Source: an uncultured SAR86 cluster bacterium
Lineage (GTDB): Bacteria > Pseudomonadota > Gammaproteobacteria > Magnimaribacterales > D2472
Reading direction: 5' to 3'
Assembly: GCA_902623685.1 (NCBI GenBank)
Contig: CACNUQ010000005.1
Coordinates: 44-64,043 of the forward strand
Length of the DNA: 64,000 nucleotides
Part shown: positions 2,649 through 59,340 of the stretch, in pieces
Layout of the letters: every line of letters begins with the position of its first letter
Position numbering within the stretch: position 1 is the first letter of the stretch
Position numbers and translations under genes: made by a program
Notes under the pieces: model-generated
What the model was told of the DNA's origin: nothing
The model's input: the letters and a program-made list of their open reading frames with translations, nothing else
The model's database searches: none

Positions 2649-2655
2649 TATATAG

Positions 2656-13077: not shown

Positions 13078-13079
13078 TA

Positions 13080-39499: not shown

Positions 39500-40195
39500 A
39501 TGAATAAATCTATTTTGAGGAGATTTTTATCACTAATTTTAGAAAAAACATATAATTTTATAGATAATATTCACTCTTTTAGAATTAGAAAATTTTATAA
39601 AGATAAGAATATTGACTGCGTGATTGATGTTGGCTCACACAAAGGGGAGTTTATTAATTCAATTTGTGAGGATCATATTCCAATCTTTTCATTTGAACCT
39701 CAAATGTCTGTAAGACATGAGTTGATGAAAAATACTCAAGGAAAAAATGTTTTGGAGTATTTTGATTATGCCCTATCATCATATTCTGGTTTTACTGACC
39801 TTCATATCAGTCATCTAACATCTACTTCTTCAACCCTTGCTCCAGACGAGCAAAGAAGATGGATAAGGTTTAAGAAATTTTTATTGGGAGGGAGTCTTAT
39901 AGCTAAAACTGTTAATGTAAATGTAGAAAAGCTAGATAATATTCTGTTAACAAAATTGAAAAGTTTCAATTCTATTTTACTGAAGATTGATGTAGAGGGT
40001 GCCGAGAGCGATGTTTTGATAGGAGCTAAAAATATTATATGCAACCAAAATATTAAATTTATTCAAATCGAAATTAGTTCATCCAATAAATACAAAAAAG
40101 CATTGGACATTCTCAATAAAAATGGCTTTATAGAATCTAAAAAATTTCTCTTTCCTTTATTAAATTTTAGTGATTTTATTTTTGTAAAAAAATAA
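39500..40195 (+). CDS. FkbM-family SAM-dependent methyltransferase
   Basis: The motif I region VIDVGSHKGEF and a later KIDVEGAE are typical of FkbM-family methyltransferases. Confidence 0.7.
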   Translation: MNKSILRRFLSLILEKTYNFIDNIHSFRIRKFYKDKNIDCVIDVGSHKGEFINSICEDHIPIFSFEPQMSVRHELMKNTQGKNVLEYFDYALSSYSGFTDLHISHLTSTSSTLAPDEQRRWIRFKKFLLGGSLIAKTVNVNVEKLDNILLTKLKSFNSILLKIDVEGAESDVLIGAKNIICNQNIKFIQIEISSSNKYKKALDILNKNGFIESKKFLFPLLNFSDFIFVKK

Positions 40196-40263
40196 ATTTC
40201 TATATTGATAATAAATATTTCTTATAAAGCAAATGTATCTCTTTTATTTTATTATGGTCTAAT

Positions 40264-41748
40264 ATGAATATATTCTCAGAAGAAAAGATAAATAGTTTTG
40301 ATACCTTGCATTTAAATTCCAAAATTAATGTTCCATTAGTTGTTGACTTAGATGGAACGCTAGTCCTTACTGATACGCTTCATGAATTAGCAATTAAATT
40401 TTTAATAAAAAATCCATTTCTAAATCTGCCAATCATGATTGGTTGGTTATTTAAAGGAAAAGCACATTTTAAGCATAATATATCTCAGCAAATAGAAGTA
40501 AATGCTGCGTCACTGCCCTATAATACAACATTTTTAAAATGGGCAAATTCTCAAAGAGAGAATGGAAGAAAGATTGTATTATGCTCAGCGGCGAATGAAA
40601 GAATTGCCAAAAAAGTTGCTGAATATACTCAAATATTTGATGAGGTAATTTCAAGCACACAATCAGAAAATCTCTCAGGTAAAAATAAAGCATTAATCTT
40701 AGAAGAGAAATTTAGCGATACCGGTTATATATATGCCGGAAATTCATTTGATGATATTCCTGTATGGGATAAAGCCATTGAGACAATTATTGTAAATGCC
40801 TCAAATAAACTCGAGAAGATTGTGAAGAAAACATATGATCAGAATTTATTTTTTTCAACTAATGTAAAAAAAATATCTATTTGGCTAAAACCACTGAGGC
40901 TTCATCAATGGACAAAAAATTTATTAATATTTCTTCCATTGATTGCTGCCCACCAGCAATATAATTTTGAAAATATTTCACTCCTTTTAGCTTCATTTAT
41001 TTGCATCGGATTGTGCGCGTCTTCTACATACGTGTTCAATGACATAATAGATATAGATAGTGATCGATTGCATGCAAGGAAAAAAAATAGATCATTTGCC
41101 TCTGGTCAGATTCCCGTAAAGCTTTCCTTATTGATGATGCTACTAATGCCTCTCTCAATAATCTTCGCTTCAATGATCGGGGAAAACTTTATGATGATGA
41201 TATTGTTATATACTCTTCTAACTCTATCTTATTCACTTTTTTTAAAAATCTTTGCAATAATTGACTGTATCGTTTTAGCCGCTTTGTATACTATTAGAAT
41301 TATTGCTGGGGCTGTAGTAATTGATAATGTTCCTTCATTTTGGTTGATTGCTTTTTCAACTTTGTTTTTTTTCTCATTAGCTTTCCTTAAGAGATATTCA
41401 GAATTGTTAAGTGCTAGGGATTTAGGAGAAAACATTATTCATGGCAGAGGATATTTAAGTTCAGATTCTCCACTTATTTTATCGCTTGGGATTTCGTCAG
41501 CTCTTGGTTCAGTAATTGTGATGATGCTTTATCTGAATAGTCCAGAAATTTTGCAACTGTATAATTCTCCTCAAATAGTATGGTTTACTATTCCGATATT
41601 ACTTTTTTGGACTAGTTATATTTGGCTTCAAGCTAATAGAGGTAACATGCATGATGACCCAGTTATTTTTGCAATAAAAGATAGAGTGAGTATTTTATCT
41701 GCAATTTGCTTTTTTGTTTGCATTATTTTGGGCGCAAGAGGTTTTTAA
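40264..41748 (+). CDS. Fusion of an N-terminal HAD-type phosphatase with a C-terminal UbiA-family prenyl-phosphate phosphoribosyltransferase (Rv3806c-like)
   Basis: HAD motifs: VVDLDGTL (DxDGT), VLCSAAN, GKNK and GNSFDDIP. From about residue 205 there is a polytopic UbiA domain: LRLHQWTKNLLIFLPL, and the Asp-rich motif NDIIDIDSDRLHARKKNRSFASGQI. Confidence 0.7.
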   Translation: MNIFSEEKINSFDTLHLNSKINVPLVVDLDGTLVLTDTLHELAIKFLIKNPFLNLPIMIGWLFKGKAHFKHNISQQIEVNAASLPYNTTFLKWANSQRENGRKIVLCSAANERIAKKVAEYTQIFDEVISSTQSENLSGKNKALILEEKFSDTGYIYAGNSFDDIPVWDKAIETIIVNASNKLEKIVKKTYDQNLFFSTNVKKISIWLKPLRLHQWTKNLLIFLPLIAAHQQYNFENISLLLASFICIGLCASSTYVFNDIIDIDSDRLHARKKNRSFASGQIPVKLSLLMMLLMPLSIIFASMIGENFMMMILLYTLLTLSYSLFLKIFAIIDCIVLAALYTIRIIAGAVVIDNVPSFWLIAFSTLFFFSLAFLKRYSELLSARDLGENIIHGRGYLSSDSPLILSLGISSALGSVIVMMLYLNSPEILQLYNSPQIVWFTIPILLFWTSYIWLQANRGNMHDDPVIFAIKDRVSILSAICFFVCIILGARGF

Positions 41749-41753
41749 CAATT

Positions 41754-43058
41754 ATGCAGCTAAAAAAAAATTCCTGGGGAAATATATCCTCACCGAATCA
41801 TCAATTTAAAGATCTAGATTCTAAGGATGTCGCCCAGAATACTATTTCCAATCATTCAAATGGGATAGTTTATGGGATGGGTAGAAGCTATGGTGATGTA
41901 TGTCTTAATCAAGATGGACTTCTTTGGAAAAGTAAAAAACTAAATAGATTAATTTCTTTTGATGAAAAGTTAGGAATTTTAGAATGCGAATCTGGGATGA
42001 CTCTTAAATCAATTCAAGATTTAGTCATTCCTAAAGGATGGATGTTACCAGTCTCACCTGGAACCCAATTTGTGACTGTTGGAGGAGCTATTGCTAATGA
42101 TATTCATGGAAAAAATCATCATCAAGCTGGTACATTTGGAAATCACATTACTGAGATTTTACTTTTGAGATCTGATTCAGATCCAATTTTATGCGGTCCA
42201 AATAAAAATAAGAATTGGTTTAAGGCAACAATTGGAGGAATAGGATTAACTGGAATTATTTTCAGTTGCAAAATTCAACTAAAAAAAATTAATGGAAGCT
42301 GGCTGGAGGCTGAATCAATTCCTTTTCAGGGCTTAGATAAATTTTTTGAGCTTACAAAAGAATCAGATTCAGATTGGGAGTACACTGCGGCATGGATAGA
42401 TTGCCTTTATAAAAAAGAGATTAGGGGCATTTTTGAAAGAGGAAAACACGTAATAAAAGATAAAAAATTTAAAAACTTTCAAATTAGTTTTCCTTTTACT
42501 CCTCCATTTTCATTGGTTAATAAATTAACAATTTCAATTTTTAACCCGATTTATTTTTTTCTTAAATCTTTTTTTTCTGGCAAGCGAACTATTCATTATT
42601 CAAAGTTTCTTCATCCATTAGATAACATTCATAACTGGAATAGAATGTATGGAACCCGAGGATTTTATCAATTTCAATGTGTTATGCCTCACGAATCTAG
42701 CAAAGAAACCCTAAAAAAAATGTTAGATTTAATTACAGAATTGAAGATGGGATCTTTTTTGGCAGTTCTAAAAAGTTTTTCTAATTTTGAACCAGTTGGA
42801 TTATTAAGTTTTTCTGAGCCAGGGATTACATTTGCTATGGATTTTCCTAATAAAGGAAATAAAACCGAGTTGTTATTTCATGAATTAGAAAAAATAGTAA
42901 TCCAATCAGGTGGGAAGATATATTTGGCTAAAGATATGCTTATGAGCAAAGAAAGTTTTGAAGCCTCGTATAAATCATTAGATTCATTTGCAACTTTCAG
43001 AGATCCCAATATAAGCTCTCAAATGTCTAAAAGGTTGTTTGGAGATTCAATTGGATAA
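41754..43058 (+). CDS. FAD-dependent prenylphosphoryl-ribose 2'-oxidase (DprE1-like)
   Basis: Collinear with M. tuberculosis DprE1 as I recall it. GMGRSYGD vs [38 protein letters not shown] vs [66 protein letters not shown], and GGKIYLAKD. The ATG at 41754 is preferred over the TTG at 41706. Confidence 0.8.
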   Translation: [434 protein letters not shown]

Positions 43059-43800
43059 TAGAGAAACTAAAGTAATTTTGGGAGGGACTTCAACCATTGC
43101 CAAAAATGTAGCAAAAATATGGCTAAAACAGCGGCCCATAAAGATAATTTTAATCGGAAGAAATTCTCAAAAATTACAGGCTGTATTTTCAGAATTAAAT
43201 AATATAAATCCTTTATCAGAAATTAATTGTGCAGAATTGAAATTTGATGATATTGATGCAGGAAGAAAATTAATTCATGAAATTGTTAAGTCTAATAATG
43301 TTTCAAAAGTACTTATTGCATTCGGTACCTTACCAAATCAGTTAGAGTGCGAAGAAAATTCTATTCGTTTAAAAGACGCGTTATTTATTAATGGTGTTTT
43401 GCCAGTAATTTATGCTGATATATTTGCGTCAAAAATTAATTCTTCTTTACCCTCCACAATTGCCATTATAGGATCTGTTGCTGGGGACAGAGGCAGGAGA
43501 TCAAATTTTTTTTACGGATCAGCTAAAAGCATGATACATACATATGTAGAAGGCGCTAGGCACAAGTTTAAGGATTCTAATTTAAATTTGTGCATTATTA
43601 AGCCTGGGCCTACGCAAACTCCAATGACAGAATCATTAGGTTTAAGAATCAAGTTAGCAGATCCTAAAATAGTTTCTAGAGATATAGTTGATGGAATTGA
43701 AAAGAACAAATCTGAAATTTATACGCCTTCTAAATGGAAAATAATTATGTTTATTATAAAGAGCTTACCCGAATTTATTTTTCATAAACTTAATATTTAA
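43039..43800 (+). CDS. SDR-type prenylphospho-2'-keto-pentofuranose reductase (DprE2-like)
   Basis: ILGGTSTIA Rossmann motif, VLIAFG, GDRGRRSNFFYGSAK (Mtb DprE2: GERVRRANFVYGSTK), IIKPGPTQTPM, and a C-terminus ...FIFHKLNI (Mtb: ...SIFRKLPI). The start is uncertain: TTG at 43039 or 43051. Confidence 0.75.
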   Translation: MEIQLDNRETKVILGGTSTIAKNVAKIWLKQRPIKIILIGRNSQKLQAVFSELNNINPLSEINCAELKFDDIDAGRKLIHEIVKSNNVSKVLIAFGTLPNQLECEENSIRLKDALFINGVLPVIYADIFASKINSSLPSTIAIIGSVAGDRGRRSNFFYGSAKSMIHTYVEGARHKFKDSNLNLCIIKPGPTQTPMTESLGLRIKLADPKIVSRDIVDGIEKNKSEIYTPSKWKIIMFIIKSLPEFIFHKLNI

Positions 43801-43805
43801 ATTAA

Positions 43806-44750
43806 ATGTTAAACCATAATTCTAAGATTGTAATTTGTGGAGGGGCAGGTTTAGTTGGTCAAAACCTTGTTCATATGCTTTTTAACTCTGGATATAAAAA
43901 TATAATCATCATAGATAAGCATCATAAAAACCTAGAAATCCTTAAGAATTTTTTCCCCATAGTTAATACAATTAATGCTGATCTATCTATTAGTGGAAAT
44001 TGGGAAAATTCATTTAAGGAAGCAAATGTAGTAATTATGCTTCAGGCCCAAATCGGCGGATTGAATTTTTTAGAATTTAAAAATAATAATTTAAATTCAA
44101 CACAAAATATTATAAAAAATTATAAAAAGTTTGAAGTTGATAGATTGATACATATTAGTTCATCTGCTATCAACTCGTCGGCTCGTGATTTTTACAGCCA
44201 AACAAAAAAATTACAAGAAAAGTTAGTTATTGATAGTAAGATAGATTGTGTAATTTTAAGACCTACTCTAATGTTTGGTTGGTTTGACCGTAAGCATTTT
44301 GGTTGGTTATCAAGATTTATGAAAAAATCTCCTATTTTTCCAATACCTGGCAATGGAAAATATATGAGGCAGCCTTTATACGCTAAAGATTTTTGTAAAA
44401 TAATTATTAGTTGTATGAAAGATAGCAAAATTAATGGAATTTATGATATTTCTGGGTTAGAAAAAATAAATTATATAGATATTATCATTCAAATTAGACG
44501 GGCTATAAAAAGTAATACTATTTTGATCAAAATACCATATAGACTATTCTATATCTTGTTAAGAGTTTGGAGTATTTTTGATAAAAATCCGCCATTTTCT
44601 GTCCAACAGCTTGAAGCTTTAGTCATAGATGAAGAATTTAAGATTATTGATTGGCCTAAAATCTTCAATGTTCAAAGTACTCCTTACGATAAAGCTATAA
44701 ACGAGACATTTACTAACACAACATTCAGCCATGTTGAACTAGATTTTTAG
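43806..44750 (+). CDS. NAD-dependent epimerase/dehydratase family protein
   Basis: Rossmann motif ICGGAGLVGQNL, and a YSQTK YxxxK motif. 314 aa. Confidence 0.65.
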   Translation: MLNHNSKIVICGGAGLVGQNLVHMLFNSGYKNIIIIDKHHKNLEILKNFFPIVNTINADLSISGNWENSFKEANVVIMLQAQIGGLNFLEFKNNNLNSTQNIIKNYKKFEVDRLIHISSSAINSSARDFYSQTKKLQEKLVIDSKIDCVILRPTLMFGWFDRKHFGWLSRFMKKSPIFPIPGNGKYMRQPLYAKDFCKIIISCMKDSKINGIYDISGLEKINYIDIIIQIRRAIKSNTILIKIPYRLFYILLRVWSIFDKNPPFSVQQLEALVIDEEFKIIDWPKIFNVQSTPYDKAINETFTNTTFSHVELDF

Positions 44751-44752
44751 CT

Positions 44753-46042
44753 ATGACAAAAAAAATTGCTGTTTTAGGAGCAGGTCCAATGGGCTTAGCT
44801 GCAGCCTATGAGTTAGTAAAAAATGGCCATAAACCAATTATTTTTGAGGCTGACGATAGGGTGGGTGGAATGACTGCCTGTTTTAATTTCAGCGGAACAG
44901 AAATAGAACGTTTTTACCATTTTCATTGTACTGGTGATTCCGAGCTCATTTCTTTGCTGGATGAACTTCAGTTATCCTCGGAAATGAAATGGAGAGAGAC
45001 TAAAATGGGATTTTGGTATGAGGACGAAATTCATGAATGGGGAAATCCAATTGCATTATTGAAGTTTAGGGGCTTGGGTTTTTTTGACAAGTTAAGATAT
45101 GGCATTTTTGCTTTTTTTTCCTCTAAGAGAAAGAATTGGAAAAGTTTAGATAAACTAGATGCAAAAAGCTGGATAAAAAAATGGGTTGGTACGGAAGTTT
45201 TTAATATTACGTGGAGAAGCTTATTTGAATTAAAGTTCTATCATTATTCTTCAAATATTTCTGCTGCTTGGATTTGGGCAAGAATCAGACGATTAGGGAC
45301 TTCAAGGTTTAATATTTTCAAAGAAAAGCTAGGTTATATTGAGGGAGGCTCAAAAACTCTTTTAAATGCTCTAACAAACTCTATTACAAGCCTTGGCGGG
45401 CAGATAAGACTAAATTCACCTGTTTCAAAAGTCTTGATTGAAAATGAAAAAATTTTAGGTATAGAAATAGAGTCTGAAGTTGAATTTTTTGATACAGTCA
45501 TTTCTACGGTCCCAACACCATTTGTTTCAAAGTTAATTCCCGATCTTTCAAAAAAAATTATAAAACAATTTTCTGCAATTAATAACATTGGAGTTATTTG
45601 TGTAATTATAAAAATTAAAAAATCTGTTTCTTCAAATTTTTGGCTAAATATAAATGATCCTGACATGGATATTCCAGGACTTGTAGAGTATTCAAATTTA
45701 ATGCCAATGAATGAGAATATTGTATATGTCCCATTTTATCTACCTGGAGAGCATCCTAAATTTTCTGATCCAGATGAAATTTTTATTACTAAGGTAAAGA
45801 AATATATTATGAAAATTAATAAATCAATTAATGAGGAGGATTTTATAGATGCTAAAGCAAGTAGATATAGATTTGCCCAGCCAATATGTGAGCCAGGTTT
45901 TTTAGAAAAAATACCAAGTTTAGATCTTGGAGTAAAAGGACTTTTAGTTGCAGATACTTGCTACTACTATCCTGAAGATCGAGGAATCTCTGAAAGTGTA
46001 AATTTTGGGAAAAGTTTGGCAAAAAAAATTCTGCATGATTAA
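44753..46042 (+). CDS. FAD/NAD(P)-binding oxidoreductase (amine oxidase / phytoene desaturase-like fold)
   Basis: N-terminal dinucleotide fold IAVLGAGPMGLAAAYEL...IFEADDRVGGM. 429 aa. Confidence 0.65.
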   Translation: MTKKIAVLGAGPMGLAAAYELVKNGHKPIIFEADDRVGGMTACFNFSGTEIERFYHFHCTGDSELISLLDELQLSSEMKWRETKMGFWYEDEIHEWGNPIALLKFRGLGFFDKLRYGIFAFFSSKRKNWKSLDKLDAKSWIKKWVGTEVFNITWRSLFELKFYHYSSNISAAWIWARIRRLGTSRFNIFKEKLGYIEGGSKTLLNALTNSITSLGGQIRLNSPVSKVLIENEKILGIEIESEVEFFDTVISTVPTPFVSKLIPDLSKKIIKQFSAINNIGVICVIIKIKKSVSSNFWLNINDPDMDIPGLVEYSNLMPMNENIVYVPFYLPGEHPKFSDPDEIFITKVKKYIMKINKSINEEDFIDAKASRYRFAQPICEPGFLEKIPSLDLGVKGLLVADTCYYYPEDRGISESVNFGKSLAKKILHD

Positions 46043-46436
46043 TTCATTTTTTTCCAAGCAATTTATTTTATTCTTGATAGTAGGTTCTTCTTGCGCAGCT
46101 GCCAATATTCTTGCAAGAGTTATCTTTGACATACGATTTAGCTATAGTACCTCAGTTGTATTGGCTTTTTGTGTTGGTTTCTCTCTAGCATTTTTTTTAA
46201 ACTACAAATATGTTTTCCCAAAGACCACAAAAAACATTTTCCAACAAATTAAGAATTTTTTTTTAATAAATATATTTTTTCTACCAATTGTATGGTTTTC
46301 ATCAATAGCTCTCCAAGAAGTTTTTATAAACTTTACTTTTATTTCATATCCTAATTTAGTTGCACATATTTTTGCAGTTTCTATTCCTGTATTAGCATCA
46401 TTTTTAATATATAAGTTTTCAATTTTTAAAGAGTAA
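46035..46436 (+). CDS. GtrA-family small membrane protein
   Basis: About 133 aa with four predicted TM helices. N-terminal FSKQFILFLIVGSSCAAANILARVIF and C-terminal YKFSIFK fit GtrA. The ATG at 46035 overlaps the upstream stop. Confidence 0.65.
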   Translation: MINSFFSKQFILFLIVGSSCAAANILARVIFDIRFSYSTSVVLAFCVGFSLAFFLNYKYVFPKTTKNIFQQIKNFFLINIFFLPIVWFSSIALQEVFINFTFISYPNLVAHIFAVSIPVLASFLIYKFSIFKE

Positions 46437-46533
46437 ATATCTTATTTAATTTTCATCAAAGATAACTTATAAATAATTAATATAAAAAAATTAAATCGAT
46501 ATATAATCCATTTTTCTAAAAATATAATTTTGA

Positions 46534-48096
46534 ATGCAAGCAAACACTAAGAGACATCTTTTCAATAGTATAGGATTCATTTTAATGGTTTCTTTAATTG
46601 TTTTAAGGTATCCAAATTTTGTTTTCAAACCGAGATTTTGGGCTGAAGAAGCAGTATATTTTGAAATTTTTTATAGTCTTGATCATTGGTGGCAATCGTT
46701 TAATCTTTTAATTTATCCAGCATACTATCTTTTTTTAAGTAGGCTGGGTCCAAGCTTAGCCACAGTGTTTCCTATTGAATATGCTCCATTAGTTACTTCA
46801 TTTGTTGGATTGATTGTACTTTCCATTCCCTTGTTAATAATTTTTTATACCGACTCAATTTATTGGAGCACGATAAAAAGTAAGCTGTTAATTTCATCCC
46901 TTTATATTTTTTCATCCACAACTGGAGAGGTATGGATGACTAGTACAAATGTTGGTTTTATAGTGCCTGTTTTTATTTTTTTAATATTAATAGATGAAAA
47001 TTTAATCTCAAAAGCAAAGAGATTTTTTTATAATGCTCTTTTGTTTATTGGGGCTATCTCAAGTCCAATTGCTATGCTAATGGCACCATTTTTCTACATA
47101 AAATATTTTATATCCAGAGAAGTAACTAGTAGAAATTATTGCATAATTTTATTTTTTGCAGCCCTAATTCAAATGGCTCATTATCTAACTGCCAGTCACT
47201 TTGGTATGGTTGCAGAGGACAGATTAGATATTGGTTCATGGGATATTACGACTAGTCTTGGAAATCTTCTTGCTTACAATATTATTTTCCCCTTGTTTGG
47301 ATACTTTATTTCTTTACTTTTTAGAGAGTTCTTTGCTTTGTTTGCCATCGGATTAGATTTAGAGGGTGTTTTAGAATCCATAAATACATCATCGGCTTTA
47401 TCTCCAAATATTCTGTTTCTAATTGAATTTTTATCTAAGATAGCTTTTCCAGTCTTATGCATTTTACTTCTAACAGTAATTTATGTTGTGTTTTTGTTAA
47501 TGAGTAGAGCTACATTAAATAAAAAAATATTTGTAATAAGTTTATTTATTTATCTTAGTTTGGTTCTAAATGGCCTATCTCTCGGGGCACTTGGAGGATT
47601 TCGATATTCCTTAATTACAGCTTTTATTCTTCTATTTTATTTACATTCAATGCTTATAGATTATCCTGACAATAAAAATTACATAGCAAAGATTTTATTA
47701 TCATGCTCACTGATTGTAGGTGTTTTAGAGTATTATCCTAGATTACATAACTATGTTCCTGACACATTTGTTGCCGAAGAGATTCAATGGCCAAATTGGA
47801 ATGATGAGCTGAAAATTTGGCAAGAAAATAATACCTATCTTCCAAAGGTTTGGCCGTACATTAAAAATAAAGATTCAATTTATCCGGCAAGATTAAAAAA
47901 TGAGGCAAATATTTTTTGCATTGATTTAAATCATCCAAAAAATTGGGAAAGAATGGGCTTTAGATACTTTAGTTCTTCATTTAATGAAATGCTAAGTGTT
48001 GGAATATCCAATGACATCAACAAACAAATTGTGCATTACGATAATTGCAGGGGAAATATTATAATCAATGGAGAGCAAGAATCATTAAGGCAGTAA
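46534..48096 (+). CDS. Polytopic membrane protein, candidate GT-C-type lipid-sugar-dependent glycosyltransferase
   Basis: 520 aa with about 11-13 hydrophobic helices. There is an acidic motif (FWAEEAVYFE) right after TM1 and a roughly 110-aa hydrophilic C-terminal domain. I recognised no family. The call rests on topology and context next to GtrA and the DprE1/E2 homologues. Confidence 0.4.
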   Translation: MQANTKRHLFNSIGFILMVSLIVLRYPNFVFKPRFWAEEAVYFEIFYSLDHWWQSFNLLIYPAYYLFLSRLGPSLATVFPIEYAPLVTSFVGLIVLSIPLLIIFYTDSIYWSTIKSKLLISSLYIFSSTTGEVWMTSTNVGFIVPVFIFLILIDENLISKAKRFFYNALLFIGAISSPIAMLMAPFFYIKYFISREVTSRNYCIILFFAALIQMAHYLTASHFGMVAEDRLDIGSWDITTSLGNLLAYNIIFPLFGYFISLLFREFFALFAIGLDLEGVLESINTSSALSPNILFLIEFLSKIAFPVLCILLLTVIYVVFLLMSRATLNKKIFVISLFIYLSLVLNGLSLGALGGFRYSLITAFILLFYLHSMLIDYPDNKNYIAKILLSCSLIVGVLEYYPRLHNYVPDTFVAEEIQWPNWNDELKIWQENNTYLPKVWPYIKNKDSIYPARLKNEANIFCIDLNHPKNWERMGFRYFSSSFNEMLSVGISNDINKQIVHYDNCRGNIIINGEQESLRQ

Positions 48097-48167
48097 AGAA
48101 ATATAATTTACTTCCCAAATATATTGCTTATAATATTTCATTTTTTAAAACACTATAAAAAACTATT

Positions 48168-48833
48168 ATGAGTGACAATAAAAATATCAGAGATATAGGC
48201 ACTTTTTTTAACGGTTATGCTGCCGAATTTTCAAGCATTTACTTAGAAGATGAAAGACCTAGAAGTTTGTTTAACAAAGTAATGGACAGACTTTTTAGAA
48301 AGGATATAGAAACACGTCTTGTTGATAGCCTCAATCATATGAGAAAAGATTCAATTAAAACGGTTCTAGACATTGGATGTGGCCCTGGCCACTTGGTTGT
48401 TAAATTACTAGAGCTTAATAAAGATGTTACAGCCCTAGACATAGCCCCGAATATGTTAGAGATTACTCAGATGAGAGTCGATTCAATGAAATTAGAGTCA
48501 AATTTTAAGACTATCTTAGCTGATTATTCAGAACATGAATTTGATGAAAAATTTGACGCAATATCAGTCATGGGCTTTTTTGACTATGTTGAAGACCCTG
48601 TCAGTGTTCTAAAAAAATTATTAAATGATGCTTCAAAAGAAATATATATTTCAATACCAGGCGATAAAGGCTTTTTAGCTTGGCAGCGAAAAGTAAGATA
48701 TAAGAGAAGAAATTGCCCTCTTTATTTATATTCAAAAGAGTCTTTAGAGCAGTATCTAAAAGATGCAGGTTGTTTAGAGATGACAGAGATTGTCGATACT
48801 GAAAGAGGCTATTATCTTATTATTAGGAAGTAA
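48168..48833 (+). CDS. Class I SAM-dependent methyltransferase
   Basis: Motif I VLDIGCGPGH, and motif post-I ALDIAPNM. Confidence 0.75.
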   Translation: MSDNKNIRDIGTFFNGYAAEFSSIYLEDERPRSLFNKVMDRLFRKDIETRLVDSLNHMRKDSIKTVLDIGCGPGHLVVKLLELNKDVTALDIAPNMLEITQMRVDSMKLESNFKTILADYSEHEFDEKFDAISVMGFFDYVEDPVSVLKKLLNDASKEIYISIPGDKGFLAWQRKVRYKRRNCPLYLYSKESLEQYLKDAGCLEMTEIVDTERGYYLIIRK

Positions 48834-48901
48834 TTCTGAATAAGATCCCGTTTTATTTTTCGATAGATCTAGAGGATTTCACTTTTGATCTTACTCGCAC
48901 T

Positions 48902-49699
48902 ATGGGTCTAAAACCAAAAGTAAATTTTGAGGCTCTTAAACTTGGATATAAGCTTATAAATGAGTTTTGTAATAATAAATTAGATTCAAAGAAAATCACA
49001 TTTTTTACAACCGGAACGGTCGCAGAAACATTTCCTGAATTATTGCAACAAATTGCCAGTGATGGTCATGAGATCGCATGTCATTATCACTATCATGACT
49101 TGATGTTTAAGCAGTCAAATGAAGAGATTGATCAGAATCTTGCTCTAGCAAAGAATGCAATATTTAAAGCTTGTGGAGAAGAGCCAAAAGGCTTTAGGGC
49201 GCCTGTTTTTTCAATTCCCAAAGACAGAACTGACATTTTTCAAGTAATTGAAAAACATTTTGATTATGATTCAAGTTTTGTCTTATATTTAAACAAATTT
49301 AATAAAACAGATTACTTTCAAAATTCACCTTTCACACTTGAGAAGCTTAAAGAATTTCCGATAGTACCAAAACCTTTTTTTAATAAAAAAATAAGTATTA
49401 AATCTGGAGGAACATTCTTGCGTCTATACACTAAAGAAATGATGAAAGAAGTCATGTTATTTAATCATGAGCAAGGCTTTATACCTTTGGTATATATGCA
49501 TCCTTACGACTATCTTCAAAATAAAGAGTTTTGGGTTCCACTATCAGACTTTTTTAAATCAAAAAAACTTTCTAATTTTATTAAGTATCCTAGACAACTT
49601 CAGTGGACAGGTTTAAGAAATAAGACTGTTTTTCCAAAGCTTGAATACATATTGGAGACATTTGAGCATCAAGGCCCAATGTCTCAGCTTATAAGTTGA
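48902..49699 (+). CDS. Polysaccharide deacetylase-family (NodB-fold) protein. The true start is possibly upstream at a non-ATG codon.
   Basis: TFFTTGTVAE, HEIACHYHYHD and GFRAPVFS resemble the deacetylase family. The in-frame sequence just upstream (48836-48901) encodes LNKIPFYFSIDLEDFTFDLTRT, which looks like the family's N-terminal Asp motif. Confidence 0.6.
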   Translation: MGLKPKVNFEALKLGYKLINEFCNNKLDSKKITFFTTGTVAETFPELLQQIASDGHEIACHYHYHDLMFKQSNEEIDQNLALAKNAIFKACGEEPKGFRAPVFSIPKDRTDIFQVIEKHFDYDSSFVLYLNKFNKTDYFQNSPFTLEKLKEFPIVPKPFFNKKISIKSGGTFLRLYTKEMMKEVMLFNHEQGFIPLVYMHPYDYLQNKEFWVPLSDFFKSKKLSNFIKYPRQLQWTGLRNKTVFPKLEYILETFEHQGPMSQLIS

Positions 49700-50811
49700 G
49701 TAAATCATCTATAGTTTTTATATGCGGTAATGGGGATACCCTTTATCGTTTTCGTCTTGAGTTGATTAAGCGCTTTTTAGAAAAAGATTTCATAGTCCAT
49801 ACTTTTGCACCCGAAATTCCTGATGACTTTCTGGCTGAGCTAAAAACTCTCGGTGTTATTTATCATAATATCTCCTTTAAAAGAAAGACTGTAAATATTT
49901 TTGATACCCTTATAAGTATTTTCGATATTACAAAAAAATTAAGAATAATTAAGCCTAATATTGTTTTTTCATATACTCATAAATCTGTGATCGTTGGATC
50001 AATATGCTCCTTTTTTGCAGGAAGACTAAGATCCATATCGTTAATCACAGGAACAGGGCATATATTTGATAATGATAATTTTGTTCAAAAAATTAAAAGA
50101 TTTGTTGGGATTTTAGGATTTAAGATATCTCTTTTTTTTAGTGAAATTGTTTTTTTTCAAAACCCTGACGATCTAGATTTGTTTTGCTCTCTCGGAATGA
50201 CAAATAAATCAAAGGCAAAATTATTAAATGGATCTGGAGTTGATCTAAAAAAGTTTTCACCCGTGCCTTTAGTAAACAATGCAAATTTTTTATGCATGTC
50301 TCGCCTTATAAAGTCAAAAGGTTTACTAGATTATGCTAAGGCAGCAAAAATAGTAAAAAATCTCTATCCCAGTGCTAGATTTCTCCTTTATGGTTTTCCT
50401 GATGACCATGAGGATTCACTAGATGAATCAGAAATAATTAATACTTGGAAAGATAAATATGGAGTAGAATATTTTGGTTTTACAAATGATCCAGTTGAAA
50501 CAATTTCTCAATGCAGTGTCTATGTTTTGCTATCTTATAATGAAGGAACTCCTAGAAGCGTTCTAGAAGCAATGTCAATGTCGAGACCAATCATCACCAC
50601 AGATGTTCCTGGATGTAGAGAAACTGTTGAAAACGGCAAAAATGGTTTCTTAGTAAATGTAAAAGACCCTCAAAGTGCAGCTGAAGCTATGATAAAACTT
50701 ATAGACTATGATTTGAGACTTGAAATGGGATCAAATTCAAGAAAGTTATGTGAAGAAAAATATGATGTGCACTTAGTAAATAATGAAATTTTTTCGACTC
50801 TAAAAATATAA
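49696..50811 (+). CDS. Glycosyltransferase family 4 (GT-B, Glycos_transf_1)
   Basis: The C-terminal EGTPRSVLEAMSMSRPIITTDVPGCRETVENGKNGFLV is the EX7E-type GT4 signature. TTG start overlaps the upstream stop. Confidence 0.85.
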   Translation: MSKSSIVFICGNGDTLYRFRLELIKRFLEKDFIVHTFAPEIPDDFLAELKTLGVIYHNISFKRKTVNIFDTLISIFDITKKLRIIKPNIVFSYTHKSVIVGSICSFFAGRLRSISLITGTGHIFDNDNFVQKIKRFVGILGFKISLFFSEIVFFQNPDDLDLFCSLGMTNKSKAKLLNGSGVDLKKFSPVPLVNNANFLCMSRLIKSKGLLDYAKAAKIVKNLYPSARFLLYGFPDDHEDSLDESEIINTWKDKYGVEYFGFTNDPVETISQCSVYVLLSYNEGTPRSVLEAMSMSRPIITTDVPGCRETVENGKNGFLVNVKDPQSAAEAMIKLIDYDLRLEMGSNSRKLCEEKYDVHLVNNEIFSTLKI

Positions 50812-55812: not shown

Positions 55813-56412
55813 TTATATTGATAAGTTTAGTAACTTGATGGCATTACAATACTTAGAAAATCGTCTTCTTTTTGAAGGGATAATATCAAGCAGATAATCT
55901 AAAGCTGTTTCTTTGGGAGCTTTAATTTCAATGACAGCATCTGTTTCACAAAAAGAATTACTGTTGCTAGCCAAATCAATATATTTTATTTGAGTATCAC
56001 AAGTAATTCTTACTTGTTTAAAAGTAAAATACTCTCTGTTATATGTTACTGAAACTTTTTTTTGAAGCTGCCCATAAAAATTATCAAAGTAGCCTATATT
56101 TGATATATATCTTTCTTCGCTATTAGATAATCTTGTTGTTTTTTTATATCTACCTTCTGCAGAAGAAATTTTTACCTCTAAAGAATATTCACTCAATTTT
56201 GAAAGTGGGTAATGACGTATTCTAATTTTTTTCCTGGGAAGAAGTCCCTCTTCAGAGTCTCTAAAAAGATTAAAATCAGCTGAATCATAATAGTCTGAAC
56301 TAATAATTCTTTTTGGATAAAGCATTTTTAAACCATCTTTTTCAAGATTAGAAATAAAATTTATTGCATCATTTAATGTCATGGGAATTTTTTCTTCTAT
56401 TCTGTAACTCAT
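55813..56412 (-). CDS. VTC / triphosphate-tunnel (TTM) domain protein, polyphosphate-polymerase-like
   Basis: 199 aa. N-terminal YRIEEKIP (ExExK-like tunnel motif), RIRHYP, LEVK and IEIK repeated basic/acidic beta-strand pattern typical of bacterial VTC-domain proteins. ATGA overlap with the upstream gene. Confidence 0.55.
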   Translation of the reverse strand: MSYRIEEKIPMTLNDAINFISNLEKDGLKMLYPKRIISSDYYDSADFNLFRDSEEGLLPRKKIRIRHYPLSKLSEYSLEVKISSAEGRYKKTTRLSNSEERYISNIGYFDNFYGQLQKKVSVTYNREYFTFKQVRITCDTQIKYIDLASNSNSFCETDAVIEIKAPKETALDYLLDIIPSKRRRFSKYCNAIKLLNLSI

Positions 56413-58694
56413 AATATTTCCAATATAGAGTTTTTATCAAAATAAAGTTGATTGATACAATTCAAGCTAGATATCTTTAAAATTGCTCCAAAAAATTCTT
56501 GTTTTTTTTGAAATGCTTCCGCGCATTTTTGAGAATCTTCTGCATTTAGAGAATCAATATATGTTTTTGAAGAATCTTTGGAAGAAATTCCTACATTTGA
56601 ATTAATTATCTCTATTAAAGAAGCATTGAATGTAGATTGCTCTCCAACAGACACTCCTTTATCACCGCAATTTTTAAAAATTGCACTTTCAATTTTATAA
56701 ATGCCTTTACTAAAATCAGAACAGTCATTTTTAGCATTAAAGACAGATAGCTTTGTTATTTCAATATTTGAAAAGTCCACATCTAGGCCATCTGCACTTG
56801 CATTGAGGATTTCTAAATTATTAATAATTCCATCACTGCCCACAATATTTATTACATCCTCACAAATTGAAAATTGTCCATTTGCCTTTATCTTTGTTGC
56901 TTTAAAACGTGCATTATAAAAAGTGAGACAACCAGTTACCCCAAATGAATTCATTCTACTACCGATATTATTCTTTTCTGCATTCACTAGATTTGATTCA
57001 AGGATAATGCTTGTATTTTCTAAATTGCTTTCTCTAATTATTATCCAGTCATTTATGTTATTTAAATTTATATAAAGCTCGCCTTTTTCTTCACTAAAAA
57101 AGGCACCTGCAGTAGCAGTCATCTCAATATTAATTAAGCCATCAAGAAATGATTTTGAAATAATAGGATCTCTGGTAATTTTTGGCGGCTCAATGAAGAG
57201 TGGGCTGTCATAATCAATATTTAAAAATTTTTTTCTTTCTAATAATTTTCCAACCATAGAAAAATCCAAGAGCTGTTCGTCACAACCTTTATTGTCTATT
57301 CTACATATTGAAGCAAGTAGCTTTTTTTCATCATGATTCATATGTCCATTTTGTACTTTTACAATATATGAATTAGGAATTGAAGATCTGACATTATTTT
57401 GAAAATTTTCTAAAGGAGATATTTTTTCAAATGAATCTAGTTTGTCGTTTTCAAGATTTAGAAGAAACTTTTTATGCATTTCATGTAGTCTTATAATCTT
57501 TTCAATTGTTTTTTCAAGAATTATTTCGGACTCCTTTAGGGTAAGTTTAAAATTATTACCTTCAGTAGATTTTGTTAGTTTTTTTGGTGTAATGAGTCTG
57601 ATTTGTTCCAATAATTCGGAAAAGTGCCTACTTTCTAAATATGGATAGAAGTGAAAAGATGGAATATACCTCAACCATTGAGTATTTATATCTCTAGGAT
57701 TGCCATCAAAATATATTGGCTCTACTCCATTTTCTAAAGCATTAAAATAGAATTTTCTATTGTGTGGTCGAAGAGCATGAAAACTGTTTGTTGAAAAGAG
57801 CAAAATCTCATATGCAGCCCACTTATCAATAAATTTTTTATTGTCTAATGAAAGAATTTTCCAATCTAATACATAATTATCTTCAAAATCCCTGCCATAC
57901 TTCATGTATGCTTCCTGAAGAATGGAGAATGAATCAAGTGCCATTACTGAGGTAGCATCGTTACTGGATGCCCAATTATCATTTGTGATTTTTGCTAGAG
58001 AAATATTCTCTAGATCAAGATGGGATGTATCAGAAGTTTGAATTCTATAATTATTGAATAAAAATCTTTCATCTCCTTCAAATAAAGGGCCTTCTCTTCT
58101 ATTCATACTTTCAAGAAGTTCTTTTGCAGTTTTTTCTTGAAATAGCATTTGGGAATCTACGCCATTAATTATTACATTTACTAGAGAGGTTCTAGGAGAT
58201 AAGAAGTCTAAAAGCCTCAACATTGATGTAAGAATGATTTCATTTTCATAACGTCTAGTCGCAGGAAGTAGTAATTTAAATTTTATGATGTTGGCTATTG
58301 ATCCATTTAGCAAAGAAACATCAACGCTTTGATTTAGTAGTCCACCTTCCTCAAAATTTATATGATCTTTCCAATCTCCATGCAGTCTGATTTTTGCATC
58401 ATGAATACATTTGCCAAAATCATAGTTTACTGAAACTGTTCCTAAGAACCGTTTTTTGTATTCTGAGGTAATAGATGAATTTCTTGATATGAACGCCTCT
58501 AATGTATTTGTTGTCCACTTTCTATAGTTATTTATATTAATCTCTATTGAATTTATGCTGTCAAGAGAACTTAATTCATCTAAATATTTGCCAGTACTAA
58601 AATCACAATTTCCTAGGTTATTTGCGTTTATATTGAATGCAAAAAGCAATAGGAGGTAAAAAAAAGTATTTTTTAAATTAAAAGTTAATGGCAT
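56409..58694 (-). CDS. Secreted CotH-like (atypical kinase fold) protein with a C-terminal parallel beta-helix-like repeat region
   Basis: Signal peptide (FFYLLLLFAFNINA). The CotH-like order of elements is IRLHGDWKDH, KFKLLLP...ENEIILTSMLRLLDFLSPRTSLVNVIINGVDSQMLFQEK, then HNRKFYFN...PIYFDGN. The C-terminal 200 aa has repeated short N/D/G-rich strands (NASADGLDVDFSN, NAKNDCSDFSKG, NCGDKGVSVGE, NSNVGISSKD). Confidence 0.5.
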   Translation of the reverse strand: MPLTFNLKNTFFYLLLLFAFNINANNLGNCDFSTGKYLDELSSLDSINSIEININNYRKWTTNTLEAFISRNSSITSEYKKRFLGTVSVNYDFGKCIHDAKIRLHGDWKDHINFEEGGLLNQSVDVSLLNGSIANIIKFKLLLPATRRYENEIILTSMLRLLDFLSPRTSLVNVIINGVDSQMLFQEKTAKELLESMNRREGPLFEGDERFLFNNYRIQTSDTSHLDLENISLAKITNDNWASSNDATSVMALDSFSILQEAYMKYGRDFEDNYVLDWKILSLDNKKFIDKWAAYEILLFSTNSFHALRPHNRKFYFNALENGVEPIYFDGNPRDINTQWLRYIPSFHFYPYLESRHFSELLEQIRLITPKKLTKSTEGNNFKLTLKESEIILEKTIEKIIRLHEMHKKFLLNLENDKLDSFEKISPLENFQNNVRSSIPNSYIVKVQNGHMNHDEKKLLASICRIDNKGCDEQLLDFSMVGKLLERKKFLNIDYDSPLFIEPPKITRDPIISKSFLDGLINIEMTATAGAFFSEEKGELYINLNNINDWIIIRESNLENTSIILESNLVNAEKNNIGSRMNSFGVTGCLTFYNARFKATKIKANGQFSICEDVINIVGSDGIINNLEILNASADGLDVDFSNIEITKLSVFNAKNDCSDFSKGIYKIESAIFKNCGDKGVSVGEQSTFNASLIEIINSNVGISSKDSSKTYIDSLNAEDSQKCAEAFQKKQEFFGAILKISSLNCINQLYFDKNSILEIL

Positions 58695-58701
58695 GGAACC
58701 A

Positions 58702-59340
58702 TTATCCTGCTGAGAATTTAATGTCTATTATTTCGGGATTCTCTTGATAATGTTTTGAAATTTGCTTGAGATTAGATGATTGATTTGATGAGAGTCTATA
58801 AACATATCCATTTGAATCTTTTCCAAAAGAGATCAGCATATCACTATTGAAAAGATCATCATTTTTAGTTTTAGAAGTAATTTCCAATATATTTGAGGAG
58901 TTTCCCTCTGAAAATGAAGTTTCAAAAAGTTTTTTATTAAAAGAGGTGCCTAAAATAATATTTGCGAAATAAGCAGTTATTATCAAAATATTACTAGTCA
59001 TCCCTAGAATTATCAGCCATCTGATGTCAGCAGCGGCACATATACCTAATGACAACATTAAAAAAAATATTACTAACTCAAATGATGATCTAACAGGGTT
59101 TCTAAATCTAACAATTGATAAAGCCCCGATCATTCCAAGAGATAGAGCAATATTTCCAGAAATAACACTTGTAATAGCGAAGGTAATTATCGGCAGCAAC
59201 ACCAGAGTCATAGTGCCAGAAAATGTTTTTATCCAGTTTTGATGATGAATTCCTACAGACGCCCTAGTTAAAAGAGCAAAAAATATTAAAACTACTATGG
59301 CTTCGATTTTATCTTGATTAAGAAGAATATAGTCGATCAT
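58702..59340 (-). CDS. DUF4956-like membrane protein
   Basis: 212 aa with four hydrophobic helices containing GALSIVRFRNPVRSSFELVIFF, then a soluble tail. This matches my memory of DUF4956, which is usually found next to VTC and CotH genes. Confidence 0.5.
   Translation of the reverse strand: MIDYILLNQDKIEAIVVLIFFALLTRASVGIHHQNWIKTFSGTMTLVLLPIITFAITSVISGNIALSLGMIGALSIVRFRNPVRSSFELVIFFLMLSLGICAAADIRWLIILGMTSNILIITAYFANIILGTSFNKKLFETSFSEGNSSNILEITSKTKNDDLFNSDMLISFGKDSNGYVYRLSSNQSSNLKQISKHYQENPEIIDIKFSAG

What the first reader, a model, noticed from the sequence alone, without database searches (positions are those of the whole stretch)
40264..48096. Complete homologue set of the mycobacterial decaprenyl-phospho-D-arabinofuranose (DPA) pathway in an AT-rich proteobacterial-type genome
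Seen in the sequence: seven co-directional, tightly packed genes, five of which map onto the DPA route known from Corynebacterineae.
- 40264-41748 has a UbiA-type domain with the NDxxDxxxD motif, like the PRPP:decaprenyl-phosphate phosphoribosyltransferase Rv3806c. It is fused to a HAD phosphatase.
- 41754-43058 is collinear with DprE1 (GRSYGD, VTVGGAIAxDIHGKNHHxAGxFGNH, HPLD...WNRxYG).
- 43039-43800 is collinear with DprE2, down to the C-terminal IFxKLxI.
- 46035-46436 is a GtrA-type protein, like Rv3789.
- 46534-48096 is a large polytopic protein where mycobacteria encode the GT-C arabinofuranosyltransferases (AftA/Emb).

Established knowledge: this pathway makes the lipid-linked D-Araf donor for arabinogalactan and LAM. 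Outside actinobacteria, a homologous set is known to me only from Pseudomonas aeruginosa Pa5196/PA7-type strains, where it supplies D-Araf for pilin glycosylation.

Inference: this organism makes a polyprenyl-phospho-pentofuranose (probably D-Araf) donor and uses it on the periplasmic side for a glycan or glycoprotein that is not identifiable from this window.
Basis: partly seen in the sequence, partly recalled or inferred. Interest (0 to 1): 0.85.

Follow-up and report, generated by a model that had tools for sequence, protein, structure and literature searches.

The report
Lipid-linked pentofuranose glycosylation gene module
An uncultured marine bacterium carries a gene set for making a lipid-linked five-carbon sugar and attaching it to a surface glycan outside the cytoplasm; this kind of system was described in 2024, and the only open part here is a conserved extra enzyme pair of unknown role.

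Summary
Seven co-directional, tightly packed genes lie at 40264-48096. They encode a HAD-UbiA fusion, a DprE1 homologue, a DprE2 homologue, an extended SDR, a phytoene-desaturase-like flavoprotein, a GtrA protein and a polytopic membrane protein.

- The homologies to Rv3806c, DprE1 and DprE2 hold, with PDB E-values of 1e-23, 3e-61 and 6e-20.
- The novelty premise does not hold. Such sets are known from Azorhizobium noeCHOP and Pseudomonas aeruginosa. Kelly et al. 2024 described them as widespread "three-component" pentofuranose side-chain systems, with a HAD-UbiA fusion synthase, a flippase, a GT-C transferase and optional DprE1/E2.
It also occurs in cultured Pseudomonas protegens, Burkholderia and Agrobacterium.
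- The extra SDR and flavoprotein never occur apart, were seen only with DprE1/E2, and are the best-conserved genes. The final sugar may therefore not be plain D-Araf.
- The polytopic protein belongs to a large family without Pfam or NCBIfam coverage. Fold and gene context suggest a GT-C transferase.

Verdict: a new member of a known kind, of modest interest.

The parts
39500..40195 (+). g0: FkbM-family methyltransferase, a conserved upstream neighbour of the module in marine relatives
   Evidence: Pfam Methyltransf_21 1.1e-15 and TIGR01444. Present directly upstream of the HAD-UbiA gene in L084, L085 and L088.
40264..41748 (+). g1: bifunctional enzyme. The N-terminal HAD phosphatase domain has DLDGT at residue 28. 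The C-terminal UbiA-type domain is a polyprenyl-phosphate 5-phosphoribosyltransferase with NDIIDIDSD at 259 and RYSE at 377.
   Evidence: NF006088/PRK08238 at 583 bits (cutoff 351). The next best models are the three decaprenyl-phosphate phosphoribosyltransferase models. The only PDB hits are Rv3806c entries 8j8j and 8j8k. The motif residues are invariant in 21 homologues. The motif spacing equals that of the mutagenised residues of C. youngae ORF15 (PMC11127046).
41754..43058 (+). g2: DprE1-type FAD oxidase, predicted to oxidise the 2'-OH of the lipid-linked ribofuranose
   Evidence: NF053785 7.6e-96 (322 bits, below the 500-bit equivalog cutoff). Mtb DprE1 structures match at 2.6e-61 over residues 26-416. 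The His/Lys of DIHGKNHH and the Lys of AKD are kept. Ala sits at the position of Mtb Cys387.
43039..43800 (+). g3: DprE2-type SDR reductase, predicted to reduce the 2'-keto group to the arabino configuration
   Evidence: NF053786 7.3e-38 and PRK07102 2.7e-56, both below cutoff. Mtb DprE2 chain 21gq_C matches at 6e-20, end to end. YGSAK at residue 159.
43806..44750 (+). g4: extended SDR of the NAD-dependent epimerase/dehydratase family, with GGAGLVG and YSQTK. Role unassigned; it always occurs with g5.
   Evidence: Pfam Epimerase 1.3e-17. The best PDB matches are complex-I NDUFA9-type SDRs, about 5e-11. Median identity to the 80 related loci is 54%.
44753..46042 (+). g5: FAD-dependent oxidoreductase of the phytoene desaturase / protoporphyrinogen oxidase / amine oxidase fold. 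Role unassigned. It is the best-conserved gene of the module.
   Evidence: NF005560/PRK07233 at 532 bits (cutoff 252). AF2 model pLDDT 82. Foldseek: rice phytoene desaturase 5mog TM 0.84, and PPOX 0.74-0.78. 60-64% identical to Pseudomonas, Achromobacter and Legionella proteins.
46035..46436 (+). g6: GtrA-family small membrane protein, the presumed flippase of the lipid-linked sugar
   Evidence: Pfam GtrA_DPMS_TM 4.8e-9, 36.9 bits against a cutoff of 26.1. It closes the conserved module in 42 of 54 loci.
46534..48096 (+). g7: polytopic membrane protein and candidate GT-C glycosyltransferase. It belongs to a family without Pfam or NCBIfam coverage. A conserved PRFWAEE motif (E38 invariant) follows TM1.
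   Evidence: No Pfam or NCBIfam hit. AF2 model pLDDT 79, pTM 0.84. Every Foldseek hit with prob >= 0.7 is a GT-C enzyme (STT3, DPY19, AftA, PimE, AftB, ALG9), but E-values are 0.03-0.5 and TM <= 0.47. Relatives lie next to GtrA (L001), a GT2 (L095), or a HAD-UbiA fusion (L097).
48168..50811 (+). g8-g10: class I SAM methyltransferase, polysaccharide deacetylase and GT4 glycosyltransferase. These are conserved downstream neighbours and form part of the surrounding glycan locus, which extends to about 55.8 kb.
   Evidence: Pfam. Same order, at 78-90% identity, in L084 and L085.

Best explanation
This is an extracytoplasmic pentofuranose-glycosylation module of the kind described by Kelly et al. 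2024. It sits in a surface-polysaccharide locus of an uncultured, small-genome marine bacterium.

Proposed steps:
1. The UbiA domain of g1 transfers ribose-5-phosphate from PRPP to a polyprenyl phosphate, presumably undecaprenyl-P. The fused HAD domain then removes the 5-phosphate, giving polyprenyl-P-ribofuranose.
2. g2, a DprE1-type flavoenzyme, oxidises the 2'-OH. g3, a DprE2-type SDR, reduces the ketone, giving polyprenyl-P-D-arabinofuranose.
3. g5 and g4 probably carry out one further redox step on this lipid-linked intermediate. g5 is a membrane-lipid-type flavoenzyme and g4 is an NAD-type SDR. The delivered sugar may therefore differ from plain Araf.
4. g6 (GtrA) flips the donor to the periplasmic face.
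5. g7, a GT-C-like enzyme, transfers the sugar to a glycan built by the neighbouring glycosyltransferases.

Steps 1, 2 and 4 rest on strong homology. Step 5 rests on fold and context. Step 3 is inference from co-occurrence only.
For: - Homology of g1, g2 and g3 to Rv3806c, DprE1 and DprE2, with catalytic motifs kept.
- g1 belongs to the fused HAD-UbiA family NF006088. It has the same domain order and the same motif spacing as C. youngae ORF15, which was shown in vitro to make farnesyl-P-Ribf.
- Kelly et al. report DprE1/E2 homologues in systems whose glycans contain Araf, and SMR/GtrA-type transporters as alternatives to MATE.
- Of 54 related loci with at least 9.5 kb downstream, 42 carry g2-g6 in the same order. 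g4 and g5 are together in all 44 loci that have either, and those loci always also have g2 and g3.
- The same module is annotated on Burkholderia, Agrobacterium and Rhodobacteraceae plasmids and in P. protegens.
- Simpler versions exist without g4/g5 (Ruegeria) and without any epimerase (Vibrio).
- g7 has a GT-C-like fold. Its family recurs beside GtrA, a GT2, or a HAD-UbiA fusion.
- The flanks encode methyltransferases, a deacetylase, and GT4, GT2 and GT32-like enzymes. A Wza/GfcB/GfcD-type export set lies at 96-5455.
Against: - No biochemical data exist for this module or for any g4/g5-containing version.
- g1-g3 score below the NCBIfam equivalog cutoffs of the mycobacterial enzymes.
- The GT-C assignment of g7 rests on weak Foldseek E-values (0.03-0.5).
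- g7 shows no profile similarity to the polytopic proteins of the other six-gene loci.
- The acceptor glycan and the lipid carrier are unknown.
- g5's closest folds act on isoprenoid chains or tetrapyrroles, not sugars.
Confidence: 0.72

Rival explanations
1. The module makes plain polyprenyl-P-D-arabinofuranose. g4 and g5 are bystanders that serve another step of the same glycan locus, for example nucleotide-sugar supply.
For: DprE1/E2 alone suffice for Araf in mycobacteria, in P. aeruginosa, and in the Ruegeria-type loci that lack g4/g5. g4 belongs to the broad NAD-dependent epimerase/dehydratase family, which also contains nucleotide-sugar enzymes.
Against: g4 and g5 lie inside the module, between g3 and g6, in 42 of 54 loci from alpha-, beta- and gammaproteobacteria whose flanking glycan genes differ. 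They are the most conserved genes of the module, with median identity of 54% and 58% against 40-48% for g1-g3. g4's best structural relatives are membrane-associated NDUFA9-type SDRs, not GalE. g5 is not UGM-like.
Confidence: 0.3
2. g4 and g5 modify the polyprenyl carrier rather than the sugar, for example by saturating or desaturating an isoprene unit. This would create a dedicated lipid pool for this donor.
For: The best structural match of g5 is phytoene desaturase (TM 0.84). That enzyme takes a long isoprenoid through a hydrophobic tunnel. g4 resembles the lipid-facing complex-I SDR NDUFA9.
Against: g4/g5 were found only in loci that also have DprE1/E2, in 44 of 44 cases. They were absent from the ribofuranose-type locus inspected. 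That is not expected for a generic carrier modification. The sample is, however, biased towards close relatives of g1.
Confidence: 0.15
3. g7 is not the transferase. It would instead be a polymerase, ligase or transporter, with the pentofuranosyltransferase encoded elsewhere.
For: g7 has no Pfam or NCBIfam assignment. Foldseek E-values are weak. hhalign finds no similarity to the polytopic proteins of other loci.
Against: All Foldseek hits with probability >= 0.7 are GT-C glycosyltransferases, and no WaaL or Wzy structure is in the top 50. An invariant acidic motif lies directly after TM1, as in GT-C enzymes. Family members recur next to polyprenyl-P-sugar synthases or GtrA in unrelated contexts.
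Confidence: 0.15

Closest known systems
Three-component pentofuranose side-chain systems, with Citrobacter youngae O1/O2 ORF15-ORF14-ORF12 (+ORF13) as prototype (Kelly et al., PNAS 2024, PMC11127046)
   Same: - A fused N-terminal HAD phosphatase plus UbiA-type phosphoribosyltransferase, with the same catalytic motif spacing.
- A small flippase and a polytopic GT-C-type transferase.
- Auxiliary epimerases that set the pentose.
- Location in a glycan locus.
- The paper already lists variants with DprE1/E2, with GtrA/SMR-type transporters, and with 'multiple epimerases'.
   Different: - The flippase is GtrA rather than MATE.
- The epimerase set is DprE1/E2 plus an uncharacterised SDR and flavoprotein pair, instead of none (O1) or the single SDR ORF13 (O2).
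- The putative GT-C belongs to a family without Pfam or NCBIfam coverage. Its relation to GT136 could not be tested.
Mycobacterial DPA pathway (Rv3806c, Rv3807c, DprE1/Rv3790, DprE2/Rv3791, Rv3789, Aft/Emb)
   Same: Homologous synthase, oxidase, reductase and GtrA-type protein. The same chemical logic is predicted, from PRPP to a lipid-linked Araf.
   Different: - The phosphatase is a fused HAD domain, not a PAP2-type Rv3807c.
- The carrier is presumably C55, not C50.
- Ala replaces the benzothiazinone-target Cys387.
- There are no Emb/Aft-family transferases.
- Two extra redox enzymes are present.
- All scores are below the equivalog cutoffs.
Pseudomonas aeruginosa Pa5196/PA7 pilin D-Araf system and Azorhizobium/Rhizobium noeC(N)HOP
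   Same: These are proteobacterial homologues of Rv3806c, DprE1 and DprE2 that supply D-Araf for a periplasmic or envelope glycosylation.
   Different: - The P. aeruginosa synthase lacks the fused HAD domain and needs a separate phosphatase. In Rhizobium sp. IRBG74 the phosphatase role is proposed for a separate gene, noeN.
- The acceptors there are pilin or Nod factor.
- No type IV pilin N-terminal motif occurs anywhere in this window.
The uncharacterised six-gene module, annotated generically in Pseudomonas protegens, Burkholderia stagnalis, Agrobacterium salinitolerans, Rhodobacteraceae SC52 and many Burkholderiales
   Same: The same six genes in the same order, at median identities to the window of 30-58% depending on the gene. 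Rhodobacteraceae SC52 even has the same seven-gene layout, with a polytopic protein after GtrA.
   Different: Most of those loci insert one to three unrelated polytopic proteins between g3 and g4. None has a g7 homologue.

Membership tests
Three-component pentofuranose glycosylation system (Kelly et al. 2024) | UbiA-family polyprenyl-phosphate phosphoribosyltransferase with the N-D-x-x-D-x-x-x-D loop | tested here: met
   NDIIDIDSD at residue 259, invariant in 21 homologues. The only PDB relatives are Rv3806c entries.
Three-component pentofuranose glycosylation system (Kelly et al. 2024) | HAD-type phosphoribose phosphatase domain with the catalytic Asp of DxDxT | tested here: met
   DLDGT at residue 28, invariant. 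Pfam HAD 2.7e-7. The fused-family model NF006088 matches at 583 bits.
Three-component pentofuranose glycosylation system (Kelly et al. 2024) | Adjacent small flippase, MATE or SMR/GtrA type | tested here: met
   g6 matches Pfam GtrA above threshold. The paper's supplement accepts SMR-type transporters.
Three-component pentofuranose glycosylation system (Kelly et al. 2024) | GT-C fold glycosyltransferase encoded in the cluster | tested here: inconclusive
   In the AF2 model, all Foldseek hits with prob >= 0.7 are GT-C enzymes, but E-values are >= 0.03 and TM <= 0.47. The gene context of relatives is supportive.
Three-component pentofuranose glycosylation system (Kelly et al. 2024) | Transfer of a pentofuranose from a polyprenyl-P donor to a finished glycan | not testable with these tools
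   This needs biochemistry or glycan analysis.
CAZy GT136 (C. youngae ORF12) | Sequence similarity to ORF12 | not tested
Mycobacterial DPA pathway enzymes (equivalogs of Rv3806c, DprE1, DprE2) | Score above the NCBIfam equivalog cutoffs | tested here: not met
   g1 scores 142 bits against a cutoff of 234. g2 scores 322 against 500. g3 scores 131 against 250. They are homologues, not equivalogs.
Mycobacterial DPA pathway enzymes (equivalogs of Rv3806c, DprE1, DprE2) | DprE1 catalytic residues (His132/Lys134 region, Lys418) and the Cys387 drug site | tested here: met
   DIHGKNHH and the Lys of AKD align to the Mtb residues. Cys387 aligns to Ala, which is a known natural variation and not catalytic.
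Mycobacterial DPA pathway enzymes (equivalogs of Rv3806c, DprE1, DprE2) | Emb/Aft-family arabinofuranosyltransferases next to the donor genes | tested here: not met
   No Pfam or NCBIfam arabinosyltransferase domain is found in g7. AftA and AftB appear only as weak fold matches.
P. aeruginosa group IV pilin arabinosylation | Linked type IV pilin gene | tested here: not met
   No G-[FMILV]-[TS]-L-x-E pilin N-terminal motif occurs in any of the six frames of the window.

The most novel reading that the evidence does not exclude
The conserved flavoprotein and SDR pair (g5 and g4) is a second oxidase/reductase couple that works like DprE1/DprE2 at another carbon of the lipid-linked sugar. The widespread six-gene module would then deliver a pentofuranose not yet known from bacterial glycans. 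One candidate is D-lyxofuranose by additional C3 inversion; Kelly et al. note it has never been found. Another is a C4/C5-modified derivative.
Probability: 0.2. Interest if true: 0.65.

Novelty: new member of a known kind. Interest (0 to 1): 0.36.

Why it matters
The finding shows that the DPA-type chemistry made famous by tuberculosis drug targets is ordinary equipment of Gram-negative surface-glycan loci, including those of abundant ocean bacteria.

The useful lead is narrower. A six-gene version with an uncharacterised flavoprotein and SDR pair is the dominant form among the relatives surveyed here. It also occurs in genetically tractable species such as P. protegens and Burkholderia. The identity of the sugar it delivers could therefore be settled with routine genetics and lipid mass spectrometry.

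The putative transferase belongs to a family with thousands of representatives and no Pfam or NCBIfam model.

Tried and rejected
- **Profile comparison of g7.** hhalign of the g7 family against 14 groups of polytopic and other large proteins from the related loci gave no similarity. g7 cannot be equated with them by sequence.
- **Family scans of distant g7 relatives.** Pfam and NCBIfam scans of 40 distant g7 relatives found no family.
- **Operon boundaries.** The promoter and terminator scan gave counts equal to shuffled expectation, so boundaries could not be set.
- **Phages.** The phage collection gave one weak partial g1 hit. There is no evidence that this is a seroconversion cassette.
- **Embleya.** The Embleya hit to g5 (27% identity) had no linked module genes.
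- **g5 as a UDP-galactopyranose mutase.** I considered this and rejected it. There is no GLF domain, and no UGM appears among the top 50 fold matches.
- **g7 as WaaL or Wzy.** Rejected on fold hits.
- **Taxonomy.** Exact-sequence look-ups gave only unnamed NCBI, ENA and Tara contigs. These include a 72.7 kb contig and a 1.45 Mb contig of the same species. The taxon therefore stays unassigned. SAR86-like is only a guess from GC content, genome size and a TonB-dependent receptor.
- **Literature.** Searches for a characterised role of the extra pair, or for P. protegens OBC1 chemistry, gave nothing usable.
Full report
**Observation**

In this report they are called g1 to g7:
- g1: 40264-41748
- g2: 41754-43058
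- g3: 43039-43800
- g4: 43806-44750
- g5: 44753-46042
- g6: 46035-46436
- g7: 46534-48096

They are tightly packed. Two pairs overlap (g2/g3 by 20 nt, g5/g6 by 8 nt) and the other gaps are 2-97 nt. GC content falls to 0.28-0.31 from about 40 to 58 kb. The quoted motifs are all present.

**What the proteins are**

- **g1** matches the NCBIfam model of a fused HAD-UbiA family end to end (NF006088/PRK08238, 583 bits, cutoff 351). Its next best models are the three decaprenyl-phosphate phosphoribosyltransferase models (1e-41 to 1e-27). Quinone, haem and other UbiA models follow only at 1e-13 or worse. In the PDB it hits only Rv3806c (1.3e-23). The HAD nucleophile motif DLDGT and the UbiA loop N259-D260-x2-D263-x3-D267 are invariant among 21 homologues.
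- **g2** matches the DprE1 model at 7.6e-96 and Mtb DprE1 structures at 2.6e-61. The next flavoprotein scores 1e-5. The DIHGKNHH stretch and the Lys equivalent to Lys418 are kept. Ala occupies the position of Cys387.
- **g3** aligns from end to end with Mtb DprE2 (6e-20).
- **g6** is a GtrA-family protein.

The UbiA domain was to group with quinone or haem enzymes, and the flavoprotein with lactone oxidases; neither is the case. None of g1-g3 reaches the equivalog cutoffs of the mycobacterial enzymes. They are homologues, not orthologues by NCBI's criteria.

**What is already known**

The premise that such a set is known outside actinobacteria only from P. aeruginosa is out of date.
- The noeCHOP operon of Azorhizobium, and noeCNHOP of Rhizobium sp. 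IRBG74, are homologues used for D-arabinosylation of Nod factors (PMC5080398).
- Kelly et al. (PNAS 2024, PMC11127046) characterised Citrobacter youngae ORF15. It is a protein with an N-terminal HAD phosphoribose-phosphatase domain and a C-terminal UbiA-type synthase. In vitro it makes farnesyl-P-ribofuranose from PRPP.
- Its essential residues N247, D248, D251 and D255, together with R366 and E369, have exactly the spacing seen in g1.
- Those authors define a three-component pathway of synthase, flippase and GT-C transferase. Auxiliary epimerases set the pentose.
- They report DprE1/E2 homologues in systems whose glycans contain Araf, and SMR/GtrA-type flippases as alternatives to MATE. They also report 'more elaborate systems' with several epimerases, whose significance 'warrants investigation'.

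**Distribution and anatomy of the module**

A scan of one genome per GTDB species returned 80 loci with a g1 relative at 40-48% identity. Most are Beta- and Gammaproteobacteria.
- I searched the six-frame ORFs of these loci with the window proteins. The conserved order is g1-g2-g3-[0 to 3 large polytopic ORFs]-g4-g5-g6.
- Among the 54 loci with at least 9.5 kb downstream of g1, 42 have g2-g6 and 2 have g2-g5. Eight have only g2 and g3, two of them also with g6, and 2 have none.
- g4 and g5 never occur apart, and occur only where g2 and g3 are present.
- They are the best-conserved members. Median identity to the window is 54% for g4 and 58% for g5, against 44% for g1, 48% for g2, 40% for g3 and 30% for g6.
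- A search with g5 found 60-64% identical proteins in Pseudomonas protegens, P. fluorescens, P. putida, Achromobacter, Legionella and Undibacterium.
- In P. protegens the module lies beside genes with GDP-mannose-dehydratase-type and GT4 domains.

Annotated plasmids show three grades of the system:
- synthase plus an EamA-type transporter only (Vibrio alfacsensis);
- synthase plus GtrA plus DprE1/E2 (Ruegeria conchae);
- the six-gene form (Burkholderia stagnalis, Agrobacterium salinitolerans and Rhodobacteraceae SC52).

All of these carry only generic annotation.

**The two unassigned enzymes**

- **g4** is an extended SDR with a GxxGxxG motif and YxxxK. Its nearest solved relatives are NDUFA9-type subunits of complex I.
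- **g5** belongs to NF005560/PRK07233, a family with no assigned function. Its AF2 model (pLDDT 82) superposes best on plant phytoene desaturase (TM 0.84) and on protoporphyrinogen oxidases (0.74-0.78). No UDP-galactopyranose mutase is among the top 50 matches.

The pair looks like a membrane-surface dehydrogenase plus a nicotinamide-dependent reductase or epimerase. Formally this parallels DprE1/DprE2. Because the pair is restricted to DprE1/E2-containing loci, I favour a further redox step on the lipid-linked sugar. A change to the polyprenyl chain cannot be excluded. Nothing here shows which carbon would be affected.

**The polytopic protein g7**

- g7 has no Pfam or NCBIfam match. A word-indexed search found only 33 relatives, from marine and other metagenome assemblies.
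- An exhaustive profile search found 3254 representatives at E <= 1e-3. Most are 400-450 residues long and share a P-R-F-W-A-E-E motif directly after the first transmembrane helix.
- Forty distant members also have no Pfam or NCBIfam family.
- The AF2 model has pLDDT 79 and pTM 0.84. Every Foldseek PDB hit with probability >= 0.7 is a GT-C enzyme: STT3A/B, DPY19, AftA, PimE, AftB and ALG9. E-values are weak at 0.03-0.5, and TM-scores are at most 0.47.
- Gene context agrees with a GT-C role. Relatives sit next to GtrA in a polysaccharide locus without a UbiA gene (L001). Others sit next to a 321-residue GT2 (L095). One sits two genes from another HAD-UbiA fusion (L097).
- No similarity to the polytopic proteins of the other six-gene loci was detectable.

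I regard the GT-C assignment as likely but not shown.

**Context and source**

- Downstream, to about 55.8 kb, lie methyltransferases, a polysaccharide deacetylase, and GT4, GT32-like and GT2 enzymes.
- At 96-5455 lies a polysaccharide export set of the Wza, GfcD/YjbH and GfcB/YjbF type.
- No pilin-type N-terminus is encoded in the window.
- The window proteins occur on an unnamed 72.7 kb NCBI contig. A nearly identical set (97-100% for g0-g9, 79% for g10) lies on a 1.45 Mb ENA contig.
- Two other unnamed marine metagenome contigs, one from Tara Oceans and one from an NCBI metagenome assembly, keep the order g0-g10 at 47-90% identity.
- The organism could not be named with the tools available.

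**Verdict**

What it describes is a further member of a published and widespread class of systems. It is not an unexpected transplant of a mycobacterial pathway.

Two points remain open:
- the role of the conserved SDR and flavoprotein pair, and hence the identity of the sugar;
- the nature of the g7 family.

Both can be tested in cultured bacteria that carry the same module.

Noticed in passing
window 96-5455: A polysaccharide export set. It comprises a Wza-like protein (Poly_export plus SLBB domains, 850 aa), a DUF940/GfcD-YjbH-type lipoprotein (721 aa) and a YjbF/GfcB lipoprotein. It lies about 35 kb upstream of the module and could export the acceptor glycan.
   Followed up: partly
window 39500-50811 compared with L084 and L085: Divergence between the window and its Tara Oceans relatives is uneven. 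g8-g10 (methyltransferase, deacetylase, GT4) are 78-90% identical. g0, g1 and g7 are only 47-68% identical. The donor synthase and transferase evolve faster than their neighbours, or have a different recombination history.
   Followed up: no
window 46534-48096; L095, L097: The g7 family has about 3254 representatives at 50% clustering and no Pfam or NCBIfam model. It has a conserved PRFWAEE motif after TM1. One distant member lies beside a radical SAM gene and a HAD-UbiA fusion, with a GT87 gene upstream (L097).
   Followed up: partly
L093/L094 (Pseudomonas protegens chromosome): The six-gene module, with a 663-aa polytopic protein inserted between the DprE2-like and SDR genes, lies directly beside genes with GDP-mannose-dehydratase-type and GT4 domains. 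These look like a D-rhamnan (CPA-like) O-polysaccharide cluster. Papers on P. protegens O-antigen clusters that I read do not mention it.
   Followed up: partly
window 41754-43058 (g2): The position equivalent to Cys387 of Mtb DprE1 is Ala. Cys387 is the covalent target of benzothiazinones. From established knowledge of DprE1 inhibitors, this enzyme would not be expected to react with them.
   Followed up: no
window 55813-59340 (- strand): A trio of a VTC-domain protein, a 761-aa protein with no Pfam match and a DUF4956 protein. The VTC gene is also seen at the edge of the related loci L085 and L088. Function was not examined.
   Followed up: no
window 9762-15245: Two tandem carboxylesterase-family genes (498 and 613 aa), followed by a DUF3604 protein.
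   Followed up: no
L088 (ENA 1.45 Mb contig, same species): The HAD-UbiA and DprE1 genes are broken into several short ORFs in this long-read assembly, while they are intact in the window. These are most likely assembly frameshifts rather than pseudogenes.
   Followed up: no
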